Below, piece after piece: positions 33,867-36,332 of a stretch of 64,000 bases of DNA; positions within the stretch are counted from its first letter, which is position 1, and each line of letters opens with the position of its first letter. The notes under the pieces are model-generated. The model worked only from the letters and a program-made list of their open reading frames with translations, had not been told where the DNA came from and did no database searches. This DNA comes from Gammaproteobacteria bacterium (GTDB taxonomy: Bacteria; Pseudomonadota; Gammaproteobacteria; UBA4575), in contig CBDCUI010000007.1 in assembly GCA_965222615.1 (NCBI GenBank), positions 313,080-377,079 on the forward strand. The letters run 5' to 3'. A program made the position numbers and the translations under genes.

Positions 33867-33943
33867 GTGGTACGCAGCCCCAGATTTGAACTGGGAATCA
33901 AGTAGGTTTGAGCTACTCAGGTCTTCCAATTGCCTCAGCTGCG
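33867..33943 (-). tRNA. Class-I tRNA with Leu anticodon CAA, A73 and encoded CCA (atypical: no long variable arm)
   Basis: Anticodon stem AGTAG/CTACT with loop CTCAAAC, T arm CCCAG-TTCAAAT-CTGGG, 5-nt variable region. Confidence 0.5.
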
Positions 33944-33954
33944 CAAATATTGTG

Positions 33955-34030
33955 TTGGTATCCCTGGCAAGATTCGAACTTGCAACATTCTGGTTTTAAG
34001 TCAGATGCGTCTTCCGGTTGCGCCACAGGG
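33955..34030 (-). tRNA. Class-I tRNA with Leu anticodon TAA, A73 (atypical)
   Basis: Anticodon loop CTTAAAA. T arm GCAAG-TTCGAAT-CTTGC. 76 nt with CCA. Confidence 0.5.
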
Positions 34031-34089
34031 ACGTTAGTCAATGTATGCCTACGGCATTATTAATTTGCGAGTAATAGCCACTCGCATGT

Positions 34090-34168
34090 CTGGTAGCCAC
34101 CCTCGGATTCGAACCGAGAAACACCGCGTTCTAAGCACGGTAGGTATGACCTATTCCCGTCAGGTGGC
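34090..34168 (-). tRNA. Irregular tRNA-like gene, anticodon loop CTTAGAA (TAG), with an extra 5 nt between the D and anticodon arms
   Basis: T arm CTCGG-TTCGAAT-CCGAG and acceptor GGCCACC/GGTGGCT-A-CCA. The D-anticodon junction is non-canonical. Confidence 0.35.
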
Positions 34169-34169
34169 C

Positions 34170-34245
34170 ATGGCACCCCTAGTAAGATTCGAACTCACAT
34201 CAACTGATTTAGAAGATCAGTGCTTTTCCTATTAAGCTATAGAGG
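34170..34245 (-). tRNA. tRNA-Arg(TCT)
   Basis: Anticodon stem CTGAT/ATCAG with loop CTTCTAA. Canonical D and T arms. CCA encoded. Confidence 0.65.
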
Positions 34246-34269
34246 TTAAAAACTGTTTACATAAATTTT

Positions 34270-34366
34270 TTGGTACCCCAACCAAGATTCGAACTTGGAT
34301 CTACCACTAATCTGGTGCGTGAATCACGGGATATAAATCCGCTGCTTTACCGTTAAGCTATTGGGG
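34270..34366 (-). tRNA. Irregular 97-nt tRNA-like element (canonical acceptor, D and T arms but unresolvable anticodon region). Possible pseudogene or unusual class-II tRNA.
   Basis: Acceptor GCCCCAA/TTGGGGT-A-CCA, D arm GCTT-AACGGTA-AAGC, T arm CCAAG-TTCGAAT-CTTGG. The middle contains the palindrome CGTGATTCACG. Confidence 0.3.
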
Positions 34367-34375
34367 CAAAAATAT

Positions 34376-34449
34376 TTGGACACTCCGCTCAGAATTGAAC
34401 TGAGTCCTCAAGGGTTGCAACCTTGCGTCTTGCCGATCGACCACGGAGT
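34376..34449 (-). tRNA. tRNA-Cys(GCA)
   Basis: Anticodon stem CAAGG/CCTTG with loop TTGCAAC (rc of plus gttgcaa). U73 discriminator typical of Cys. CCA encoded. Confidence 0.65.
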
Positions 34450-34450
34450 G

Positions 34451-34525
34451 TTGGCACATCCGGAAAGATTTGAACTTTCATCTTTGGGTTTGGAGGCCAA
34501 TGTTCTGCCAATTGAACTACAGATG
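34451..34525 (-). tRNA. tRNA-Trp(CCA)
   Basis: Anticodon loop on the plus strand is tttggag, giving anticodon CCA. D arm GTTC-AATTGGCA-GAAC. Confidence 0.6.
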
Positions 34526-34527
34526 CT

Positions 34528-34603
34528 CTGGCTGGGAATCCTGGACTCGAACCAAGATCTCAAGAGTCAAAGTCTTGCGTCTTAACCAGTTAGACGAATT
34601 CCC
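34528..34603 (-). tRNA. tRNA-Gln(TTG)
   Basis: Anticodon stem CAAGA/TCTTG with loop CTTTGAC (plus gtcaaag). G73. Confidence 0.65.
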
Positions 34604-34612
34604 AATTTTAAT

Positions 34613-34689
34613 TTGGCGCGGTTGGAAAGATTCAAACTTTCATCTACGACTTTCGTAGAGTCGTGCTTTATCCGATTAAGCTACAACCG
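34613..34689 (-). tRNA. tRNA-Arg(ACG)
   Basis: Anticodon stem CGACT/AGTCG with plus loop ttcgtag. Perfect acceptor. Confidence 0.65.
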
Positions 34690-34697
34690 CAAAATTT

Positions 34698-34773
34698 TTT
34701 GGTAGCCCGAATCCGATTCGAACGGATAACTTTCGCTTTGTAAGAACGACACTCTGCCAATTGAGTTATCGGG
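34698..34773 (-). tRNA. tRNA-Val(TAC)
   Basis: Plus loop ttgtaag. D arm ACTC-AATTGGCA-GAGT. A73. Confidence 0.6.
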
Positions 34774-34783
34774 CTAATATTAT

Positions 34784-34855
34784 TTTGGTAGTTACGGTTA
34801 GAATCGAACTAACAAGTCCAGGGTTATGAGCCCTAGCTGAAGACCACTTCCGTAA
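34784..34855 (-). tRNA. tRNA-Met or Ile2 (CAT), elongator type (1:72 paired)
   Basis: Plus loop ttatgag, giving anticodon CAT. Confidence 0.55.
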
Positions 34856-34864
34856 CTAAAATAT

Positions 34865-34938
34865 TTGGTGGATCCAGTAGGAGTCGAACCTACCTCTGCG
34901 GGTTAAAAGCCCGCTGCACAGCCGCTATGCCATAGATC
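34865..34938 (-). tRNA. tRNA-Lys(TTT)
   Basis: Anticodon stem GCGGG/CCCGC with plus loop ttaaaag. Confidence 0.65.
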
Positions 34939-34939
34939 C

Positions 34940-35015
34940 TTGGCACGCCTGAAAGGATTTGAACCTTTATCTCACTGGTTCGAAGCCAGTTGCTTTTCCA
35001 TTTAAGCTACAGACG
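34940..35015 (-). tRNA. tRNA-Arg(TCG)
   Basis: Anticodon stem ACTGG/CCAGT with plus loop ttcgaag. Confidence 0.6.
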
Positions 35016-35017
35016 TA

Positions 35018-35108
35018 TTGGCGGAGAAGAACAGATTCGAACTGTTGAATGAAAAATTTCCATTTCTCCTTTAGCAAAGGAGCGCTTTAAACCACTCAGC
35101 CACTTCTC
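35018..35108 (-). tRNA. tRNA-Ser(GCT), class II (91 nt)
   Basis: Anticodon stem CTCCT/AGGAG with loop TTGCTAA. Long variable arm. 3-bp D stem. G73. Confidence 0.65.
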
Positions 35109-35124
35109 CAATTTATATTTATAT

Positions 35125-35200
35125 TTGGGGTGAACTACCGGACTCGAACCGGTATCTACCAGATTCACGTTCTGGGGCTTTGCCATTAAGCTAAGCTCAC
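35125..35200 (-). tRNA. tRNA-His(GTG) with G-1:C73
   Basis: Plus loop ttcacgt. C73 discriminator and an extra 5' G, typical of bacterial tRNA-His. Confidence 0.65.
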
Positions 35201-35210
35201 CATAATTATT

Positions 35211-35301
35211 TTGGCGGAAGGCGGAGGGCACGATCCCCACTAACCAAAAGCCAGCCACCAGTTTTCAAGACTGGGACACCCCCACTGGGTGAATCACCTT
35301 C
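35211..35301 (-). tRNA. Atypical Sec-like/Ser tRNA with anticodon TGA: 8-bp acceptor, 5-bp D stem, deviant T loop ATCGTGC
   Basis: Acceptor GGAAGGTG.../...CGCCTTCC-G-CCA resembles Ser/Sec tRNAs. Anticodon stem CCAGT/ACTGG with loop CTTGAAA. D arm CACCC-AGTGG-GGGTG. The T loop lacks the TTCGA consensus. Confidence 0.35.
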
Positions 35302-35316
35302 CTTATATATGTAGGT

Positions 35317-35391
35317 TTGGAGCGGATAATCGGATTCGAACCGATATTTATGGTTTGGAAGACCATCACTCTGCCAATTGAGTTATACCCG
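35317..35391 (-). tRNA. tRNA-Gly(TCC)
   Basis: Anticodon stem ATGGT/ACCAT with plus loop ttggaag. U73. Confidence 0.65.
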
Positions 35392-35396
35392 CAAAT

Positions 35397-35474
35397 TTGG
35401 TCTCAGCAGTTGGATTCGAACCAACGACCTCTCGCTTCCAAGGCGAGGACTCTGACCAGACTGAGCTACACTGA
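35397..35474 (-). tRNA. tRNA-Pro(TGG)
   Basis: Anticodon stem CTCGC/GCGAG with plus loop ttccaag. A73. Confidence 0.6.
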
Positions 35475-35497
35475 GAATATTTTTTGTATAAAAATTA

Positions 35498-35575
35498 TTT
35501 GGTGCATCGAGTTGGACTTGAACCACCTTTGCGTGTAGGTACTACACGTGAATCAAGAATCACTTTGTGATTCCA
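35498..35575 (-). pseudogene. tRNA-like 3' fragment (T arm plus acceptor-CCA) preceded by a perfect 7-bp/3-nt-loop hairpin. No matching 5' acceptor strand.
   Basis: T arm GGTGG-TTCAAGT-CCAAC then TCGATGC-A-CCA. Upstream is the hairpin CGTGTAG-TAC-CTACACG instead of an anticodon arm. Confidence 0.3.
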
Positions 35576-35592
35576 TTTTTTATTGAAAATTT

Positions 35593-35668
35593 TTGGTTCA
35601 TCGGATTAGAGTTGAACTAATATCTTCACAATTATCAGTTGTGTGCTTTACCAGTTAAGCTACCGATG
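35593..35668 (-). tRNA. tRNA-Ile(GAT), second copy
   Basis: Anticodon stem CACAA/TTGTG with plus loop ttatcag. Perfect acceptor. Confidence 0.65.
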
Positions 35669-35743
35669 AATAATCTTTAGAAATATTGTATCGCTTCGCG
35701 ATTATTAATTTACGAGTAATACCCACTCGCAAGTGTGGTGTTC

Positions 35744-35818
35744 CTGACCAGAATTGAACTGGCATCTCGAGTTTGAAAGACTCGTGACCTCACCGTTAGT
35801 CGACAGGAACAAATTAAT
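35744..35818 (-). tRNA. tRNA-Glu(TTC)
   Basis: Anticodon stem CGAGT/ACTCG with plus loop ttgaaag. Confidence 0.6.
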
Positions 35819-35823
35819 TTATT

Positions 35824-35899
35824 TTGGCGGATCCGATCGGACTCAAACCGACATCCCCTTTATCGACAGTAAAGTGCTTTATCAATTAAGCTACGAATC
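35824..35899 (-). tRNA. tRNA-Asp(GTC)
   Basis: Anticodon stem CTTTA/TAAAG with plus loop tcgacag. G73. Confidence 0.65.
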
Positions 35900-36255
35900 C
35901 AAATTTTATTTAAAGGTTGAGACTACGCCTTTAACAATCACTCTTTTGTTGAAGTGCCTAACGCATTGCTGTGCGAAAGTTGTCAACGTGTCCACATTAC
36001 CCTGGTTGCTCCAGCGATAATGTTAGTGATCATGACTGCTTTTTTTAAAGTGTAGCGATTCACTTGTCGCATTGATCTATTCAGCTATTCACTTACCGAG
36101 AACCTTGCAGGGCTCTAAACGGAGGCTATCCGATCGTGCAATGAAGTAACTAAAGTTCTTTGGCTTGCGGCCGCAGAAGCTTCCATGTTCCCAAGCGGGC
36201 ATGGACTTAAGTCATTTTCAATCAACACCGAGACGCGTCTTTGCGTTTCACCGTA

Positions 36256-36332
36256 TGGTGATCTATGTGGGAGTCGAACCCACGACCTATTGATTCTAAG
36301 TCAATCGCTCTACCAATCTGAGCTAAAAGATC
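36256..36332 (-). tRNA. Class-I tRNA with Leu anticodon TAG, A73 and encoded CCA (atypical)
   Basis: D arm GCTC-AGATTGGTA-GAGC. Anticodon stem ATTGA/TCAAT with loop CTTAGAA. T arm GTGGG-TTCGACT-CCCAC. Confidence 0.5.

What the first reader, a model, noticed from the sequence alone, without database searches (positions are those of the whole stretch)
33867..36332. Leu-anticodon tRNAs (CAA, TAA, TAG twice) built on a class-I scaffold without the long variable arm
The genes at 33867-33943 (anticodon loop CTCAAAC), 33955-34030 (CTTAAAA), 34090-34168 (CTTAGAA, irregular) and 36256-36332 (CTTAGAA) all have 4-5-nt variable regions and are 74-79 nt long. Bacterial tRNA-Leu is normally class II, about 85 nt with a long extra arm. 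All four retain the A73 discriminator, which is the major LeuRS identity element.

No canonical class-II tRNA-Leu is present in the array, whereas Ser(GCT) and Tyr(GTA) in the same array keep their long arms. These may be unusual but functional Leu tRNAs of phage-like origin. Alternatively they may be decoys or mis-chargeable tRNAs.
Basis: seen in the sequence. Interest (0 to 1): 0.6.

Follow-up and report, generated by a model that had tools for sequence, protein, structure and literature searches.

The report
Short-armed leucine tRNAs, mobile array
Three of the four genes belong to a widespread phage-type family of leucine tRNAs that lost the long extra arm but kept every feature the leucine-charging enzyme needs, so they are ordinary; the fourth is a threonine-type tRNA with a leucine anticodon buried inside a GOLLD RNA.

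Summary
Four minus-strand tRNA genes carry Leu anticodons (CAA, UAA, UAG, UAG), 4-5-nt variable regions and A73. The array has no long-armed tRNA-Leu, while Ser and Tyr keep their arms.

Three genes (33868-33944, 33956-34032, 34091-34169) are bona fide Leu-type tRNAs. They keep A73, the A15:U48 pair and the 3-bp D-stem typical of tRNA-Leu, and they score best against a profile built only from long-armed Leu tRNAs.

This architecture is common. In viral contigs sampled without regard to Leu, 30 of 60 Leu tRNAs are short, against 0 of 43 Ser. Cultured phages (Felixounavirus, Bixzunavirus, Otagovirus) carry annotated short Leu genes, and a 2019 paper noted one in a mycobacterial tRNA cluster. E. 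coli LeuRS is known not to need the arm.

The fourth gene (36256-36332) is different. It sits in the linker of a GOLLD RNA and has a tRNA-Thr-type body with only the anticodon switched to UAG. Its amino-acid identity is open.

The array lies in a genomic island at tRNA-Phe of an uncultured gammaproteobacterium.

Side result: gene 34271-34367 is a tRNA(UAU) with a second, GAU-centred anticodon-like arm. This design recurs in 82 of 91 long-armed viral tRNA(UAU) genes.

The parts
33868..33944 (-). tRNA-Leu(CAA), class I (5-nt variable region TGATT). Features: G1.U72, A73, encoded CCA; D-arm AGGC-AATTGGAAG-ACCT (3-bp stem, C13.A22 unpaired, A15, G18G19, A20a-type loop); U48.
   Evidence: ARAGORN; Rfam 43.4 bits; positions; best isotype profile is class II Leu; 100% identical in L005.
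33956..34032 (-). tRNA-Leu(UAA), class I (variable region ATGTT). Features: G1.U72, A73, CCA; D-arm GCGC-AACCGGAAG-ACGC (C13.A22 unpaired, A15); U48.
   Evidence: ARAGORN; Rfam 56.2 bits; similar to the 76-nt tRNA-Leu of Rhodococcus phage Francesca; 100% identical in L005.
34091..34169 (-). tRNA-Leu(UAG), class I. It belongs to a phage subfamily with a 3-nt linker (UGA) before the D-stem, a 6-bp anticodon stem (26:44 paired) and a 4-nt variable region. Features: G1.U72, A73, A15, U48, G13.A22 unpaired, A37.
   Evidence: ARAGORN; Rfam 33.9 bits; homologues in Felixounavirus and Pseudomonas phage PPSC2; compensatory changes versus L005; covariation; best profile is class II Leu.
36256..36332 (-). 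tRNA with anticodon UAG on a Thr/Lys-type class I body (4-bp D-stem with C13-G22 paired, G15:C48, variable loop AGGTC, G1-C72, A73, CCA). It lies in the linker of the GOLLD RNA and is not a member of the class I Leu family.
   Evidence: Rfam tRNA 71.1 bits; position in the GOLLD alignment; nearly identical core to Bacillus phage TsarBomba tRNA-Thr(UGU) except for the anticodon and acceptor stem; best isotype profiles are Lys/Asn/Thr; 13:22 paired.
35914..36401 (-). GOLLD RNA (RF02032): 5' hairpin, a linker holding the tRNA, and the conserved 3' domain. The variable 5' domain may extend further upstream.
   Evidence: Rfam 155.8 bits versus gathering score 150, E 1e-42, full model 1-416; same RNA in L005 at 153.5 bits.
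32897..37207 (-). tRNA array: 25 ARAGORN-called tRNA genes plus at least 3 non-canonical tRNA-like genes, all on one strand and all with encoded CCA. The other isotypes carry canonical bacterial identity marks. It covers all 20 amino acids if the non-canonical CAU-anticodon gene at 34785-34860 serves Met.
   Evidence: near-identical array in a different chromosomal context in L005/L248.
35019..35109 (-). tRNA-Ser(GCU), class II (91 nt, G73): an internal comparator that keeps its long arm.
37029..37113 (-). tRNA-Tyr(GUA), class II (85 nt, A73): an internal comparator that keeps its long arm.
34271..34367 (-). tRNA(UAU) on an Ile-type body with an extra arm in the variable region (CAC-CAGATTA-GTG) whose 7-nt loop is centred on GAU. 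It is the mirror image of the Leu case: an arm has been gained.
   Evidence: Rfam tRNA 55.3 bits; fold; recurrent design in viral contigs.
33194..33760 (-). HNH endonuclease gene inside the array, between tRNA-Leu(CAA) and tRNA-Ile(GAU).
   Evidence: Pfam HNH_5 1.7e-16; identical protein in L005.
28437..29633 (-). RtcB RNA ligase, part of the module shared with L005.
   Evidence: Pfam RtcB 2.3e-132; shared segment.
18547..18576 (+). Degenerate copy (27/30) of the tRNA-Phe 3' part. It is the likely distal boundary of the older island (about 18.6-40.25 kb) that carries the array.
   Evidence: the repeat finder family D10.
40253..40298 (+). Exact 46-nt repeat of the 3' part of tRNA-Phe (att). It marks the boundary between the array-bearing island and a second island at 40.3-55.0 kb.
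54968..55043 (-). Host tRNA-Phe(GAA), the integration site. A tyrosine integrase gene lies next to it at 53839-54882.

Best explanation
The genes at 33868-33944 (CAA), 33956-34032 (UAA) and 34091-34169 (UAG) are functional leucine tRNAs of a phage/mobile-array lineage that descends from ordinary long-armed tRNA-Leu by loss of the variable arm.

The proposed mechanism is as follows. They are transcribed with the rest of the array and processed. The host leucyl-tRNA synthetase charges them because it reads A73 and the shape of the D/T hinge (A15:U48, G18G19, 3-bp D-stem), and reads neither the anticodon nor the extra arm. Together they decode UUG, UUR and CUN.

The arm can be lost in Leu but not in Ser or Tyr, because SerRS and bacterial TyrRS use the arm as an identity element. 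That is why the same arrays keep long Ser and Tyr tRNAs.

The three genes are part of a near-complete, self-contained tRNA set. This set travels as a module (array + GOLLD + HNH + SPFH + RtcB) between chromosomal sites of uncultured gammaproteobacteria. Here it sits in a genomic island at tRNA-Phe.

The fourth gene (36256-36332) has a separate origin: it is a tRNA-Thr-type body whose anticodon became UAG, embedded in the GOLLD linker. Who charges it, if anyone, is unknown.

What is shown: gene structure, conservation, covariation, presence of the determinants, and distribution. What is inferred: charging by LeuRS, expression, and the reason for arm loss.
For: 1. Structure. These are class I cloverleaves with no hidden arm.

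2. LeuRS determinants. A73, A15 and U48 are present in all three. 13:22 is unpaired in all three: C.A, C.A and G.A.

3. The same signature defines the family at scale:
- Short Leu tRNAs in viral loci fetched with a class I UAG-tRNA pattern (n=195): A73 92%, A15 98%, U48 92%.
- Long Leu tRNAs in the same loci (n=43): 93/95/84%.
- Other class I tRNAs in the same loci (n=1270): 54/47/34%.
- The joint A73+A15+U48 signature: 91-93% of short Leu, at most 42% in any other isotype, 15-16% of other class I tRNAs pooled.
- 13:22 unpaired: 99% of short Leu (n=225), 97% of long Leu, 23% of other class I.

4. Isotype profiles (anticodon masked, variable region removed, Leu model built from long-armed Leu only). 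CAA, TAA and TAG#1 all score best as Leu. So do 136 of 212 viral short Leu tRNAs, and no alternative isotype exceeds 6%. The method names the right isotype for 16 of the 22 other window tRNAs.

5. Selection. CAA and TAA are 100% identical in a second array copy that is 94-97% identical overall. TAG#1 differs at 9 positions, all pair-preserving in stems (G29-C41 to A-U, U30.G40 to U-A, C6-G67 to U.G). The TAG#1 subfamily covaries strongly.

6. Distribution. Short tRNA-Leu genes are annotated in Felixounavirus (tag, caa, taa), Mycobacterium phage Alice (cag, gag, caa), Pseudomonas phage PPSC2 and Rhodococcus phage Francesca. At least 120 viral contigs match a class I UAG pattern. In loci anchored on tRNA-Gly, Leu is 30 short / 30 long, Ser 0/43 and Tyr 4/17. 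Short Leu tRNAs also occur in arrays of Acidobacteriota, Myxococcales, Planctomycetes and cyanobacteria.

7. Literature. In E. coli, A73, A15-U48, G18G19 and A20a are essential, while the anticodon and long arm are not, and arm-less minimal tRNA-Leu is still charged and edited (PMC9976931). A cluster-encoded tRNA-Leu(TAG) with a short variable loop was noted in Mycobacterium, and cluster tRNAs there are expressed (PMC6582537).

8. The array's other tRNAs carry canonical identity marks, such as Ala G3:U70, Ser G73 plus arm, and Cys U73.
Against: - There are no expression or charging data for this array.
- The host's own LeuRS and tRNA-Leu genes were not available, so the E. coli rules are extrapolated within Gammaproteobacteria.
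- TAG#1 has a weak Rfam score (33.9 bits), a 3-nt linker before the D-stem and a C.U at 10:25.
- Both UAG tRNAs have A37 rather than the G37 (m1G37) usual for CUN readers, although A37 occurs in about half of phage Leu(UAG) of either class.
- The isotype margins are modest (2.7-7.9 bits) and the home-made profiles are only about 73% accurate.
- The tRNA-versus-spacer substitution contrast is modest (2.4% versus 5.2%).
- The promoter/terminator scan does not exceed chance.
- The fourth gene does not fit the explanation at all and had to be split off.
Confidence: 0.8

Rival explanations
1. The short Leu tRNAs are decoys or sponges. They are made to absorb host tRNA-targeting nucleases or toxins, or to survive them because arm-dependent recognition fails, rather than to supply translation.
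For: The module carries the RNA ligase RtcB, and in L005 also an RlaP nucleotidyltransferase. It sits beside a second island with helicase-nuclease and NYN genes, whose role was not tested. Arm loss would remove a possible recognition handle. G1.U72 is enriched in short Leu tRNAs (32-40% versus 11% in other class I) and is unexplained.
Against: A pure decoy would not need A73, A15:U48, the Leu-type D-arm and an intact acceptor/T domain, all conserved at 92-99%. Evading toxins and functioning in translation are not mutually exclusive. No toxin known to use the tRNA-Leu arm was identified here.
Confidence: 0.1
2. The genes are decaying pseudogenes of a horizontally acquired array, and the arm was lost through degradation.
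For: The array contains clear debris and oddities: an orphan 3' tRNA-Ile fragment at 35490-35525, non-canonical CAU and UGA tRNA-like genes, and a low-scoring TAG#1.
Against: CAA and TAA are 100% identical between two array copies that differ by 3-6% elsewhere. The changes in TAG#1 are compensatory. The family covaries strongly. The same architecture, with the same determinants, recurs in hundreds of unrelated viral contigs and in lytic phages.
Confidence: 0.03
3. The class I Leu-anticodon tRNAs are charged with another amino acid and recode Leu codons.
For: LeuRS-independent charging cannot be excluded without experiments. Yeast mitochondria decode CUN as Thr with a tRNA-Thr(UAG), and Ashbya decodes CUU/CUA as Ala (PMC7609411). 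The fourth gene has a Thr-type body.
Against: For the three Leu-type genes there is no G3:U70 (Ala) and no long arm or G73 (Ser). Synthetases that read the anticodon would reject CAA, UAA and UAG. The bodies are Leu-like. For the fourth gene, the anticodon is UAG rather than NGU and the 2:71 pair is A-U; from textbook knowledge, not tested here, bacterial ThrRS reads G35, U36 and C2-G71.
Confidence: 0.03
4. For 36256-36332 only: the GOLLD-embedded tRNA is not a translational Leu tRNA. It is either a structural or handle module of GOLLD, or a tRNA stored in the GOLLD assembly and released conditionally.
For: It lies in the GOLLD linker, where tRNAs are known to occur. Published cryo-EM work proposes encapsulated or covalently linked tRNAs and 'inhibited storage' (PMC12286853; PMC12990946). 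No expression of the embedded pseudo-tRNA was detected in M. aubagnense (PMC6582537). It lacks the Leu hinge determinants. A targeted scan found no free-standing relatives of this type in viral contigs apart from one unrelated hit.
Against: It is the best-scoring tRNA of the whole array (71.1 bits), with an intact acceptor stem, A73 and encoded CCA. It is 100% conserved between the two array copies while the flanking GOLLD differs at 17 of 411 positions. That fits a tRNA that is processed and used.
Confidence: 0.4

Closest known systems
Canonical bacterial class II tRNA-Leu (e.g. E. coli tRNA-Leu)
   Same: Leu anticodons, A73, the A15:U48 Levitt pair, a 3-bp D-stem with unpaired 13:22, and a D-loop AAUUGG-AGA with G18G19 and an A20a-type spacing (PMC9976931).
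   Different: The window genes have no long variable arm (4-5 nt instead of more than 10). G1.U72 is frequent. The UAG species has A37.
Short tRNA-Leu genes annotated in cultured phages: Felixounavirus (tag/caa/taa), Mycobacterium phage Alice and other Bixzunavirus (cag/gag/caa), Pseudomonas phage PPSC2 (tag), Rhodococcus phage Francesca (caa)
   Same: The same class I architecture next to long Ser/Tyr genes. TAG#1 shares its idiosyncratic D-arm with the Felixounavirus and PPSC2 genes. TAA resembles the Francesca gene.
   Different: Those sit in lytic phage genomes, whereas the window copy is in a chromosomal island of a gammaproteobacterium. Sequence identity is only about 77-88%.
Cluster-encoded tRNA-Leu(TAG) with a short variable loop in the Mycobacterium mucogenicum/phocaicum tRNA cluster (Behra et al. 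2019, PMC6582537)
   Same: A horizontally acquired tRNA cluster containing an HNH gene; a short-loop Leu(TAG) beside host long-armed Leu; cluster tRNAs expressed. GOLLD with an embedded tRNA is reported in a different mycobacterial cluster, the M. aubagnense '32 tRNA' cluster.
   Different: Actinobacterial host. The short loop was only remarked on in passing, with no identity analysis.
Minimalist E. coli tRNA-Leu lacking the variable and anticodon arms (Larkin et al. 2002, as reviewed in PMC9976931)
   Same: It demonstrates that LeuRS charges and edits arm-less tRNA-Leu provided A73 and the D/T tertiary contacts are intact. This is the mechanistic precedent.
   Different: Those are engineered molecules, whereas the window genes are natural and widespread.
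Animal mitochondrial tRNA-Leu (class I)
   Same: A natural class I tRNA-Leu whose identity rests on A73 and A14, without a long arm (PMC9976931).
   Different: It works with an organellar LeuRS with relaxed rules, and there is no sequence relationship.
GOLLD RNA with a tRNA in its linker (Weinberg 2009; Morgado 2020; Kretsch 2025, PMC12286853; PMC12990946)
   Same: GOLLD inside a tRNA array with a tRNA embedded in the single-stranded linker.
   Different: The embedded tRNA reported in Mycolicibacterium is tRNA-Phe or a pseudo-tRNA. Here it is a Thr-type body with a UAG anticodon, in a gammaproteobacterial island.
Nematode nev-tRNAs (V-arm tRNAs with UAU or CCC anticodons, leucylated; PMC3333845, PMC4300185). 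Comparator for the side observation at 34271-34367.
   Same: A long-armed tRNA with a UAU anticodon.
   Different: nev-tRNAs have Leu-type bodies. The phage/array tRNA(UAU) has an Ile-type body (13:22 paired; the class II-Leu profile is not among the top four, which are Thr/Ile/Gln/Asn), and its arm is a GAU-centred anticodon-loop mimic.

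Membership tests
tRNA (Rfam RF00005) | Covariance-model score at or above the gathering threshold (29 bits). | tested here: met
   71.1 (TAG#2), 56.2 (TAA), 43.4 (CAA) and 33.9 (TAG#1) bits.
Bacterial-type tRNA-Leu (LeuRS substrate) | Leu anticodon (YAA or NAG). | tested here: met
   CAA, UAA, UAG, UAG.
Bacterial-type tRNA-Leu (LeuRS substrate) | Discriminator A73. | tested here: met
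   All four.
Bacterial-type tRNA-Leu (LeuRS substrate) | A15:U48 Levitt pair. | tested here: met
   Met for CAA, TAA and TAG#1. Not met for the GOLLD-embedded gene, which has G15:C48.
Bacterial-type tRNA-Leu (LeuRS substrate) | Three-bp D-stem with unpaired 13:22. Observed here in 97% of long-armed Leu versus 23% of other class I tRNAs. | tested here: met
   C.A, C.A and G.A in the first three; C-G paired in the GOLLD-embedded gene.
Bacterial-type tRNA-Leu (LeuRS substrate) | G18G19 placement and A20a in the D-loop. | tested here: inconclusive
   CAA (AATTGGAAG) and TAA (AACCGGAAG) match the E. coli pattern AAUUGGUAG by direct reading. TAG#1 has a longer loop (GAATAGGTCAT), so numbering is ambiguous.
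Bacterial-type tRNA-Leu (LeuRS substrate) | Long variable arm (class II architecture). | tested here: not met
   Variable regions are 4-5 nt. This feature defines the canonical structural class but is not a LeuRS determinant in E. coli (PMC9976931).
Bacterial-type tRNA-Leu (LeuRS substrate) | Best isotype-specific profile is Leu (anticodon masked). | tested here: met
   Met for CAA, TAA and TAG#1 with margins of 7.9, 2.7 and 4.9 bits. Not met for the GOLLD-embedded gene, whose top profiles are Lys/Asn/Thr. The profiles are home-made and about 73% accurate. tRNAscan-SE was not available.
Bacterial-type tRNA-Leu (LeuRS substrate) | Aminoacylation with leucine by LeuRS. | not testable with these tools
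   Requires biochemistry or charged-tRNA sequencing.
Phage/array class I tRNA-Leu (operational family defined here) | Leu anticodon, 4-6-nt variable region, A73, A15, U48 and unpaired 13:22, located in a phage genome or a mobile tRNA array. | tested here: met
   Three genes meet all criteria and the GOLLD-embedded gene fails three. Homologues occur in cultured phages.
GOLLD RNA (RF02032) | Covariance-model score at or above the gathering threshold (150 bits) over the full model. | tested here: met
   155.8 bits over model positions 1-416; 153.5 bits in L005.
GOLLD RNA (RF02032) | Homo-oligomeric nanocage assembly. | not testable with these tools
   Known from cryo-EM of other members (PMC12286853).
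tRNA-Thr (considered for 36256-36332) | NGU anticodon and the G1-C72/C2-G71 acceptor determinants. | tested here: not met
   The body is nearly identical to a phage tRNA-Thr(UGU), but the anticodon is UAG and 2:71 is A-U. The ThrRS identity set is taken from textbook knowledge.
Mobile tRNA array | A dense single-strand cluster of 20 or more tRNA genes covering most isotypes, acquired horizontally. | tested here: met
   25 or more genes in 4.3 kb. The same module occurs in different flanks in L005. It lies in an island bounded by tRNA-Phe att repeats.

The most novel reading that the evidence does not exclude
The non-standard scaffolds in this array may be adaptations to what host synthetases read, rather than neutral quirks.

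(a) tRNA-Leu sheds an arm that LeuRS ignores, possibly also escaping factors that recognise the arm.

(b) tRNA(UAU), whose anticodon most bacterial IleRS would read poorly, has gained a second hairpin that mimics the GAU anticodon loop of the major tRNA-Ile. This hairpin would recruit IleRS, or allow a two-state fold.

(c) A Thr-type tRNA with a Leu anticodon is held inside a GOLLD RNA.

The most testable and most novel element is (b): a natural tRNA with two anticodon-type arms, one for decoding (UAU, with U33) and one for identity (GAU, with A33).
Probability: 0.3. Interest if true: 0.8.

Novelty: new member of a known kind. Interest (0 to 1): 0.35.

Why it matters
For the finding as given, the value is clarification. 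Short-armed tRNA-Leu is a normal and very common design in phages and mobile tRNA arrays, and its distribution matches synthetase identity rules: Leu can lose the arm, Ser and Tyr cannot. Annotators need not flag such genes as pseudo or 'OTHER', as some GenBank records do.

It also gives a simple sequence signature that separates true Leu tRNAs from look-alikes: A73 + A15:U48 + unpaired 13:22. Here that signature exposes the GOLLD-embedded UAG tRNA as something else.

The side observation could matter more. A widespread tRNA(UAU) with a second, GAU-centred anticodon-like arm suggests a natural way of supplying an identity element in cis. That would bear on AUA decoding, on IleRS recognition, and on the design of orthogonal tRNAs.

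Tried and rejected
- Megablast of the array against cultured phages found no match. Distant blastn gave only generic tRNA similarity.
- The AcrB-like protein is not on record, so it could not name the host. The host was instead named through the genome-contig scan.
- Rfam missed Leu(CAA) in the large scans, which raised doubt. A narrow scan resolved this at 43.4 bits.
- A hidden long arm was rejected by folding and covariation.
- I looked for GOLLD relatives in all fetched loci with nhmmer and in cultured phages with blastn. Only the sister array turned up, so the anticodons of other GOLLD-linker tRNAs could not be compared.
- A scan for GOLLD-type UAG tRNAs (AGGTC variable loop) in viral contigs gave one hit, unrelated to GOLLD.
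- A37 as a feature linked to arm loss was rejected: it is about 50:50 in both length classes.
- Literature searches for prior descriptions of phage class I tRNA-Leu, and of long-armed phage tRNA(UAU), found only the passing remark in PMC6582537 and the nematode nev-tRNAs. The library holds open-access papers only, so absence there is weak evidence.
- blastn of the two-armed tRNA(UAU) against cultured phages found no tRNA hit.
- The promoter/terminator scan did not exceed chance.
- Protein-structure tools, the metagenome-contig scan and custom covariance models were not needed.

Full report
**Observation**

ARAGORN finds 26 tRNA genes in the window, 25 of them in one minus-strand array at 32897-37207. 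Four have Leu anticodons:

| Gene | Coordinates (−) | Length incl. CCA | Rfam tRNA score |
|---|---|---|---|
| CAA | 33868-33944 | 77 nt | 43.4 bits |
| UAA | 33956-34032 | 77 nt | 56.2 bits |
| UAG #1 | 34091-34169 | 79 nt | 33.9 bits |
| UAG #2 | 36256-36332 | 77 nt | 71.1 bits |

CAA had been dropped by the speed filters in the larger scans and scores 43.4 bits when scanned alone. All four fold as class I cloverleaves with 4-5-nt variable regions and A73. The first three also share G1.U72.

Ser(GCU), 91 nt, and Tyr(GUA), 85 nt, keep long arms. Rfam reveals two more long-armed tRNA-like genes that ARAGORN missed, at 34271-34367 (anticodon UAU) and 35213-35302 (anticodon UGA). Neither has a Leu anticodon.

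**Context**

This is not a lytic phage genome.

- A tyrosine integrase (53839-54882) abuts a host-type tRNA-Phe (54968-55043). MutY, AsmA, DegP and a DnaJ-like gene lie beyond it.
- An exact 46-nt copy of the tRNA-Phe 3' part at 40253-40298 bounds a 14.7-kb island encoding helicase-nuclease proteins, NYN and integrases.
- A degraded copy (27/30) at 18547-18576 bounds an older adjacent island. This island carries Cus-type efflux genes, an AraC-family regulator, RtcB, PcfJ, SPFH, HNH, the tRNA array and a GOLLD RNA.
- An identical HNH protein led to a 1.3-Mb contig of an uncultured gammaproteobacterium MAG (CBDEUS010000002.1). There the same module (array, GOLLD, HNH, SPFH, RtcB) sits in entirely different flanks at 94-97% identity. 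The array is therefore a mobile module.
- Its other tRNAs carry textbook bacterial identity marks, such as Ala G3:U70, Ser G73 plus arm, Cys U73 and Gln U1:A72/G73. The set looks functional as a whole.

**What the first three genes are**

The review by Giege and Eriani (PMC9976931) summarises the identity rules. E. coli LeuRS needs A73 and the hinge (A15-U48, G18G19, A20a). It needs neither the anticodon nor the long arm, and arm-less minimal tRNA-Leu is still charged and edited.

CAA, UAA and UAG#1 have A73, A15 and U48. They also have the class II-Leu type D-arm: a 3-bp stem with 13:22 unpaired (C.A, C.A, G.A), and for CAA and UAA a D-loop (AATTGGAAG, AACCGGAAG) almost identical to E. coli's AAUUGGUAG.

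To see whether this is specific, I collected viral contigs with patterns that fix only the anticodon loop and T-loop, and ran ARAGORN locally.

| Set (loci fetched with the UAG pattern) | n | A73 | A15 | U48 |
|---|---|---|---|---|
| Leu, short | 195 | 92% | 98% | 92% |
| Leu, long | 43 | 93% | 95% | 84% |
| Other class I | 1270 | 54% | 47% | 34% |

- Most apparent exceptions among the short Leu genes are one-base register errors by ARAGORN.
- The joint A73+A15+U48 signature is at most 42% in any other isotype.
- 13:22 is unpaired in 99% of short Leu (n=225), 97% of long Leu and 23% of other class I tRNAs.

I then built per-isotype profile HMMs with the anticodon masked and the variable region removed, using only long-armed Leu tRNAs for the Leu model. 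These named the right isotype for 16 of the 22 other window tRNAs. They put Leu first for CAA, UAA and UAG#1, and for 136 of 212 viral short Leu tRNAs, with no alternative isotype above 6%.

**Selection**

Between the two array copies, CAA and UAA are identical. UAG#1 differs at nine positions, and every stem change preserves pairing: G29-C41 to A-U, U30.G40 to U-A, and C6-G67 to U.G. tRNA genes differ at 2.4% of aligned positions against 5.2% for the remaining sequence.

UAG#1's 'irregular' D-region (a 3-nt linker, a GG/CC stem, then AATTGG...ACCT) is shared with the tRNA-Leu(UAG) of Felixounavirus and Pseudomonas phage PPSC2 and with eight viral contigs. On that 12-sequence alignment the class I cloverleaf is 96% paired, against 38-50% when partners are slid. 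Fourteen of 21 pairs change on both sides, the 26:44 pair covaries, and 0 of 500 shuffles reach the observed covariation score. There is no room for a hidden long arm.

**How common it is**

- Cultured phages carry annotated short tRNA-Leu genes beside long Ser/Tyr genes: Felixounavirus (tag, caa, taa: the same trio as here), Mycobacterium phage Alice (cag, gag, caa), PPSC2 (tag) and Rhodococcus phage Francesca (caa, next to a long taa).
- In loci anchored on tRNA-Gly(UCC), a sample not selected on Leu, Leu tRNAs are 30 short and 30 long. Ser is 0 short / 43 long and Tyr 4 short / 17 long. 93% of the short Leu genes carry the triple signature against 15% of other class I tRNAs.
- In bacterial genomes the same D-loop type of short Leu occurs in arrays of Acidobacteriota, Myxococcales, Planctomycetes and cyanobacteria, and as single extra Leu(UAA) genes in Streptomyces.
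- Behra et al. 2019 (PMC6582537) already remarked that a cluster-encoded tRNA-Leu(TAG) in Mycobacterium has a short variable loop. That cluster contains an HNH gene; GOLLD is reported in a different mycobacterial cluster, the M. aubagnense '32 tRNA' cluster. They showed cluster tRNAs are expressed.

The pattern fits a simple rule: Leu can lose the arm, Ser cannot, and Tyr rarely does. [quoted passage not shown] From established knowledge, it is also contacted by bacterial TyrRS. It is irrelevant to LeuRS.

**The fourth gene**

It lies inside a GOLLD RNA (RF02032, 155.8 bits, 35914-36401), in the AU-rich linker between the 5' hairpin and the conserved 3' domain. This is where tRNAs are known to occur in some GOLLDs (PMC12286853; PMC12990946).

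Its body is not Leu-like. The D-stem is 4 bp with C13-G22 paired, the Levitt pair is G15:C48, the variable loop is AGGTC, and the best isotype profiles are Lys/Asn/Thr.

From position 8 to 65 it is almost base-for-base the tRNA-Thr(UGU) of Bacillus phage TsarBomba. The anticodon stem-loop is identical except for UGU to UAG, while the acceptor stem is unrelated. It is 100% conserved between the two array copies. A targeted scan found no comparable free-standing tRNA in viral contigs apart from one hit unrelated to GOLLD.

Its charging identity cannot be inferred. It has A73 but lacks the LeuRS hinge, and it lacks the ThrRS anticodon and the 2:71 determinant. It may be a stored or structural tRNA module of GOLLD, a poorly leucylated CUN reader, or, least likely, a recoding tRNA.

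**Mechanism and rivals**

The best-supported reading (confidence about 0.8 for three genes) is that these are LeuRS-charged isoacceptors decoding UUG, UUR and CUN within a portable, near-complete tRNA set.

- A pure decoy role is unlikely, because the synthetase determinants and the whole acceptor/T domain are conserved.
- Pseudogene decay is contradicted by conservation and covariation.
- Mischarging is unlikely, because no other anticodon-independent identity set (G3:U70; long arm plus G73) is present.
- Whether arm loss is neutral streamlining or also helps to evade arm-recognising host factors is not decided by these data. The neighbouring RtcB and the enrichment of G1.U72 (32-40% versus 11%) keep that possibility alive.
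- A37 rather than G37 in the UAG tRNAs is a general phage trait, about 50:50 in both length classes.

**Side observation**

The gene at 34271-34367, inside the finding's coordinates, is the mirror image of the Leu case: an Ile-type body with anticodon UAU that has gained an arm. It is identical in the sister array.

- In loci not selected for it, 12 of 39 viral tRNA(UAU) genes are long.
- A scan that fixes only the UAU loop, a variable-region length of 18-30 nt and the T-loop returned at least 120 hits.
- Of 91 distinct long-armed genes (those from this scan plus the 12 found earlier), 82 have an extra hairpin of 3-5 bp with a 7-nt loop whose central triplet is GAU. The consensus is Y-A-G-A-U-U/A-A, and some loops are the exact tRNA-Ile(GAU) loop CUGAUAA.
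- The usual layout is a 2-nt linker after the UAU arm and 5-6 nt before the T-stem. No control long arm shows this.
- The stem covaries: score 0.785 against 0.187 for shuffles, with 0 of 500 shuffles as high.
- The mimic loop has A at the position equivalent to 33, whereas the UAU loop keeps U33.
- Deleting the GAU hairpin in silico leaves a tRNA-Ile(UAU) call in 84 of 85 cases. Deleting the UAU arm leaves a tRNA-Ile(GAU) call in 45 of 85.

IleRS relies on anticodon determinants, G34 or lysidine-34 (PMC9976931). An in-cis GAU anticodon-loop mimic that helps a UAU tRNA to be isoleucylated is therefore an attractive but untested hypothesis.

I found no description of this design in the searchable literature. 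The closest known case is the nematode nev-tRNA(UAU), which has a Leu-type body.

**Verdict**

The finding is real and the main interpretation is right for three genes. The feature is a new member of a known and very common kind, so its interest is modest. The GOLLD-embedded Thr-type tRNA(UAG) and the two-armed tRNA(UAU) are the parts of this locus that deserve follow-up.

Noticed in passing
window 34271-34367 (-); also L005 9448-9544, and viral loci such as L260, L281, L302 and L311: A tRNA(UAU) with an Ile-type body and a second hairpin in the variable region whose 7-nt loop is centred on GAU, the anticodon of the major tRNA-Ile. 82 of 91 distinct long-armed viral tRNA(UAU) genes share the design. 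The stem covaries, and position 33 of the mimic loop is A. About 31% of viral tRNA(UAU) genes are of this type. ARAGORN misses the window copy. No published description was found.
   Followed up: yes
window 35914-36401 (-): A GOLLD RNA (RF02032, 155.8 bits) inside the tRNA array of a gammaproteobacterial genomic island, with a tRNA in its linker. The 373 nt upstream (36402-36774) contain no called gene and may be the variable 5' domain.
   Followed up: partly
window 35213-35302 (-): A tRNA-like gene with an 8-bp acceptor stem, a 4-bp T-stem with a 6-nt loop, a 7-bp variable arm, anticodon UGA (Ser) and G73. This is an allo-tRNA/Sec-like 8/4 architecture. The best Rfam hit is tRNA-Sec at 33.7 bits, below the gathering score. 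It is conserved in L005 (2 mismatches).
   Followed up: partly
window 34785-34860 (-): A CAU-anticodon tRNA-like gene with an 8-bp acceptor, no 8-9 linker and a miniature D-arm (4 bp plus a 4-nt loop). Both ARAGORN and Rfam miss it. The fold z-score is -2.75, and there is 1 mismatch versus L005. It may be the array's only Met/Ile2-type gene.
   Followed up: partly
window 35490-35525 (-), compared with L005 8194-8269: An orphan 3' part (T-arm, acceptor 3' strand, CCA) of the tRNA-Ile(GAU) that is intact in the sister array. In the window a different Ile(GAU) copy and a hairpin repeat have been inserted, which suggests cassette-like replacement within the array. Leu(UAG)#1 also looks exchanged: 11% divergent while its neighbours are identical.
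   Followed up: partly
window 33834-33867, 34057-34090, 35702-35735: A conserved GC-rich hairpin element of about 34 nt (GCGAGTGGGTATTACTCGC-type) directly 3' of tRNA-Leu(CAA), tRNA-Leu(UAG)#1 and tRNA-Glu. The copy after Leu(UAG)#1 is absent at the corresponding site in L005. Its function is unknown; it could be a processing signal, a small mobile repeat or an HNH target.
   Followed up: no
window 18547-18576, 40253-40298, 54968-55043: Tandem genomic islands at tRNA-Phe. An exact 46-nt att repeat bounds a 14.7-kb island (DUF4011-helicase-REase of 1822 aa, an RNaseH-like SF1 helicase, NYN, two integrase-type genes). A degraded third repeat bounds the older island that carries the Cus-type efflux genes and the tRNA module.
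   Followed up: partly
viral loci, e.g. L055, L059, L084, L062, L156 (list): Long variable arms also occur sporadically in phage tRNA-Asn, Thr, Lys, Cys, Met and Gln. These are usually short hairpins capped by GNRA-like tetraloops (GAAA, GCAA, GTAA), unlike the GAU-loop arm of tRNA(UAU).
   Followed up: no
window tRNA-Leu CAA/UAA/UAG#1, tRNA(UAU) and tRNA-Trp; viral sets: G1.U72 closes the acceptor stem in three of the four Leu-anticodon genes. It is enriched in short Leu tRNAs of viral contigs (32-40%) relative to other class I tRNAs (11%). This is unexplained.
   Followed up: partly
L251-L253 (Streptomyces genomes): Lone extra class I tRNA-Leu(UAA) genes in Streptomyces. From general knowledge, not checked here, UUA is a rare, developmentally regulated codon in this genus, read by the bldA tRNA. 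A mobile short-armed Leu(UAA) could bypass that control.
   Followed up: no
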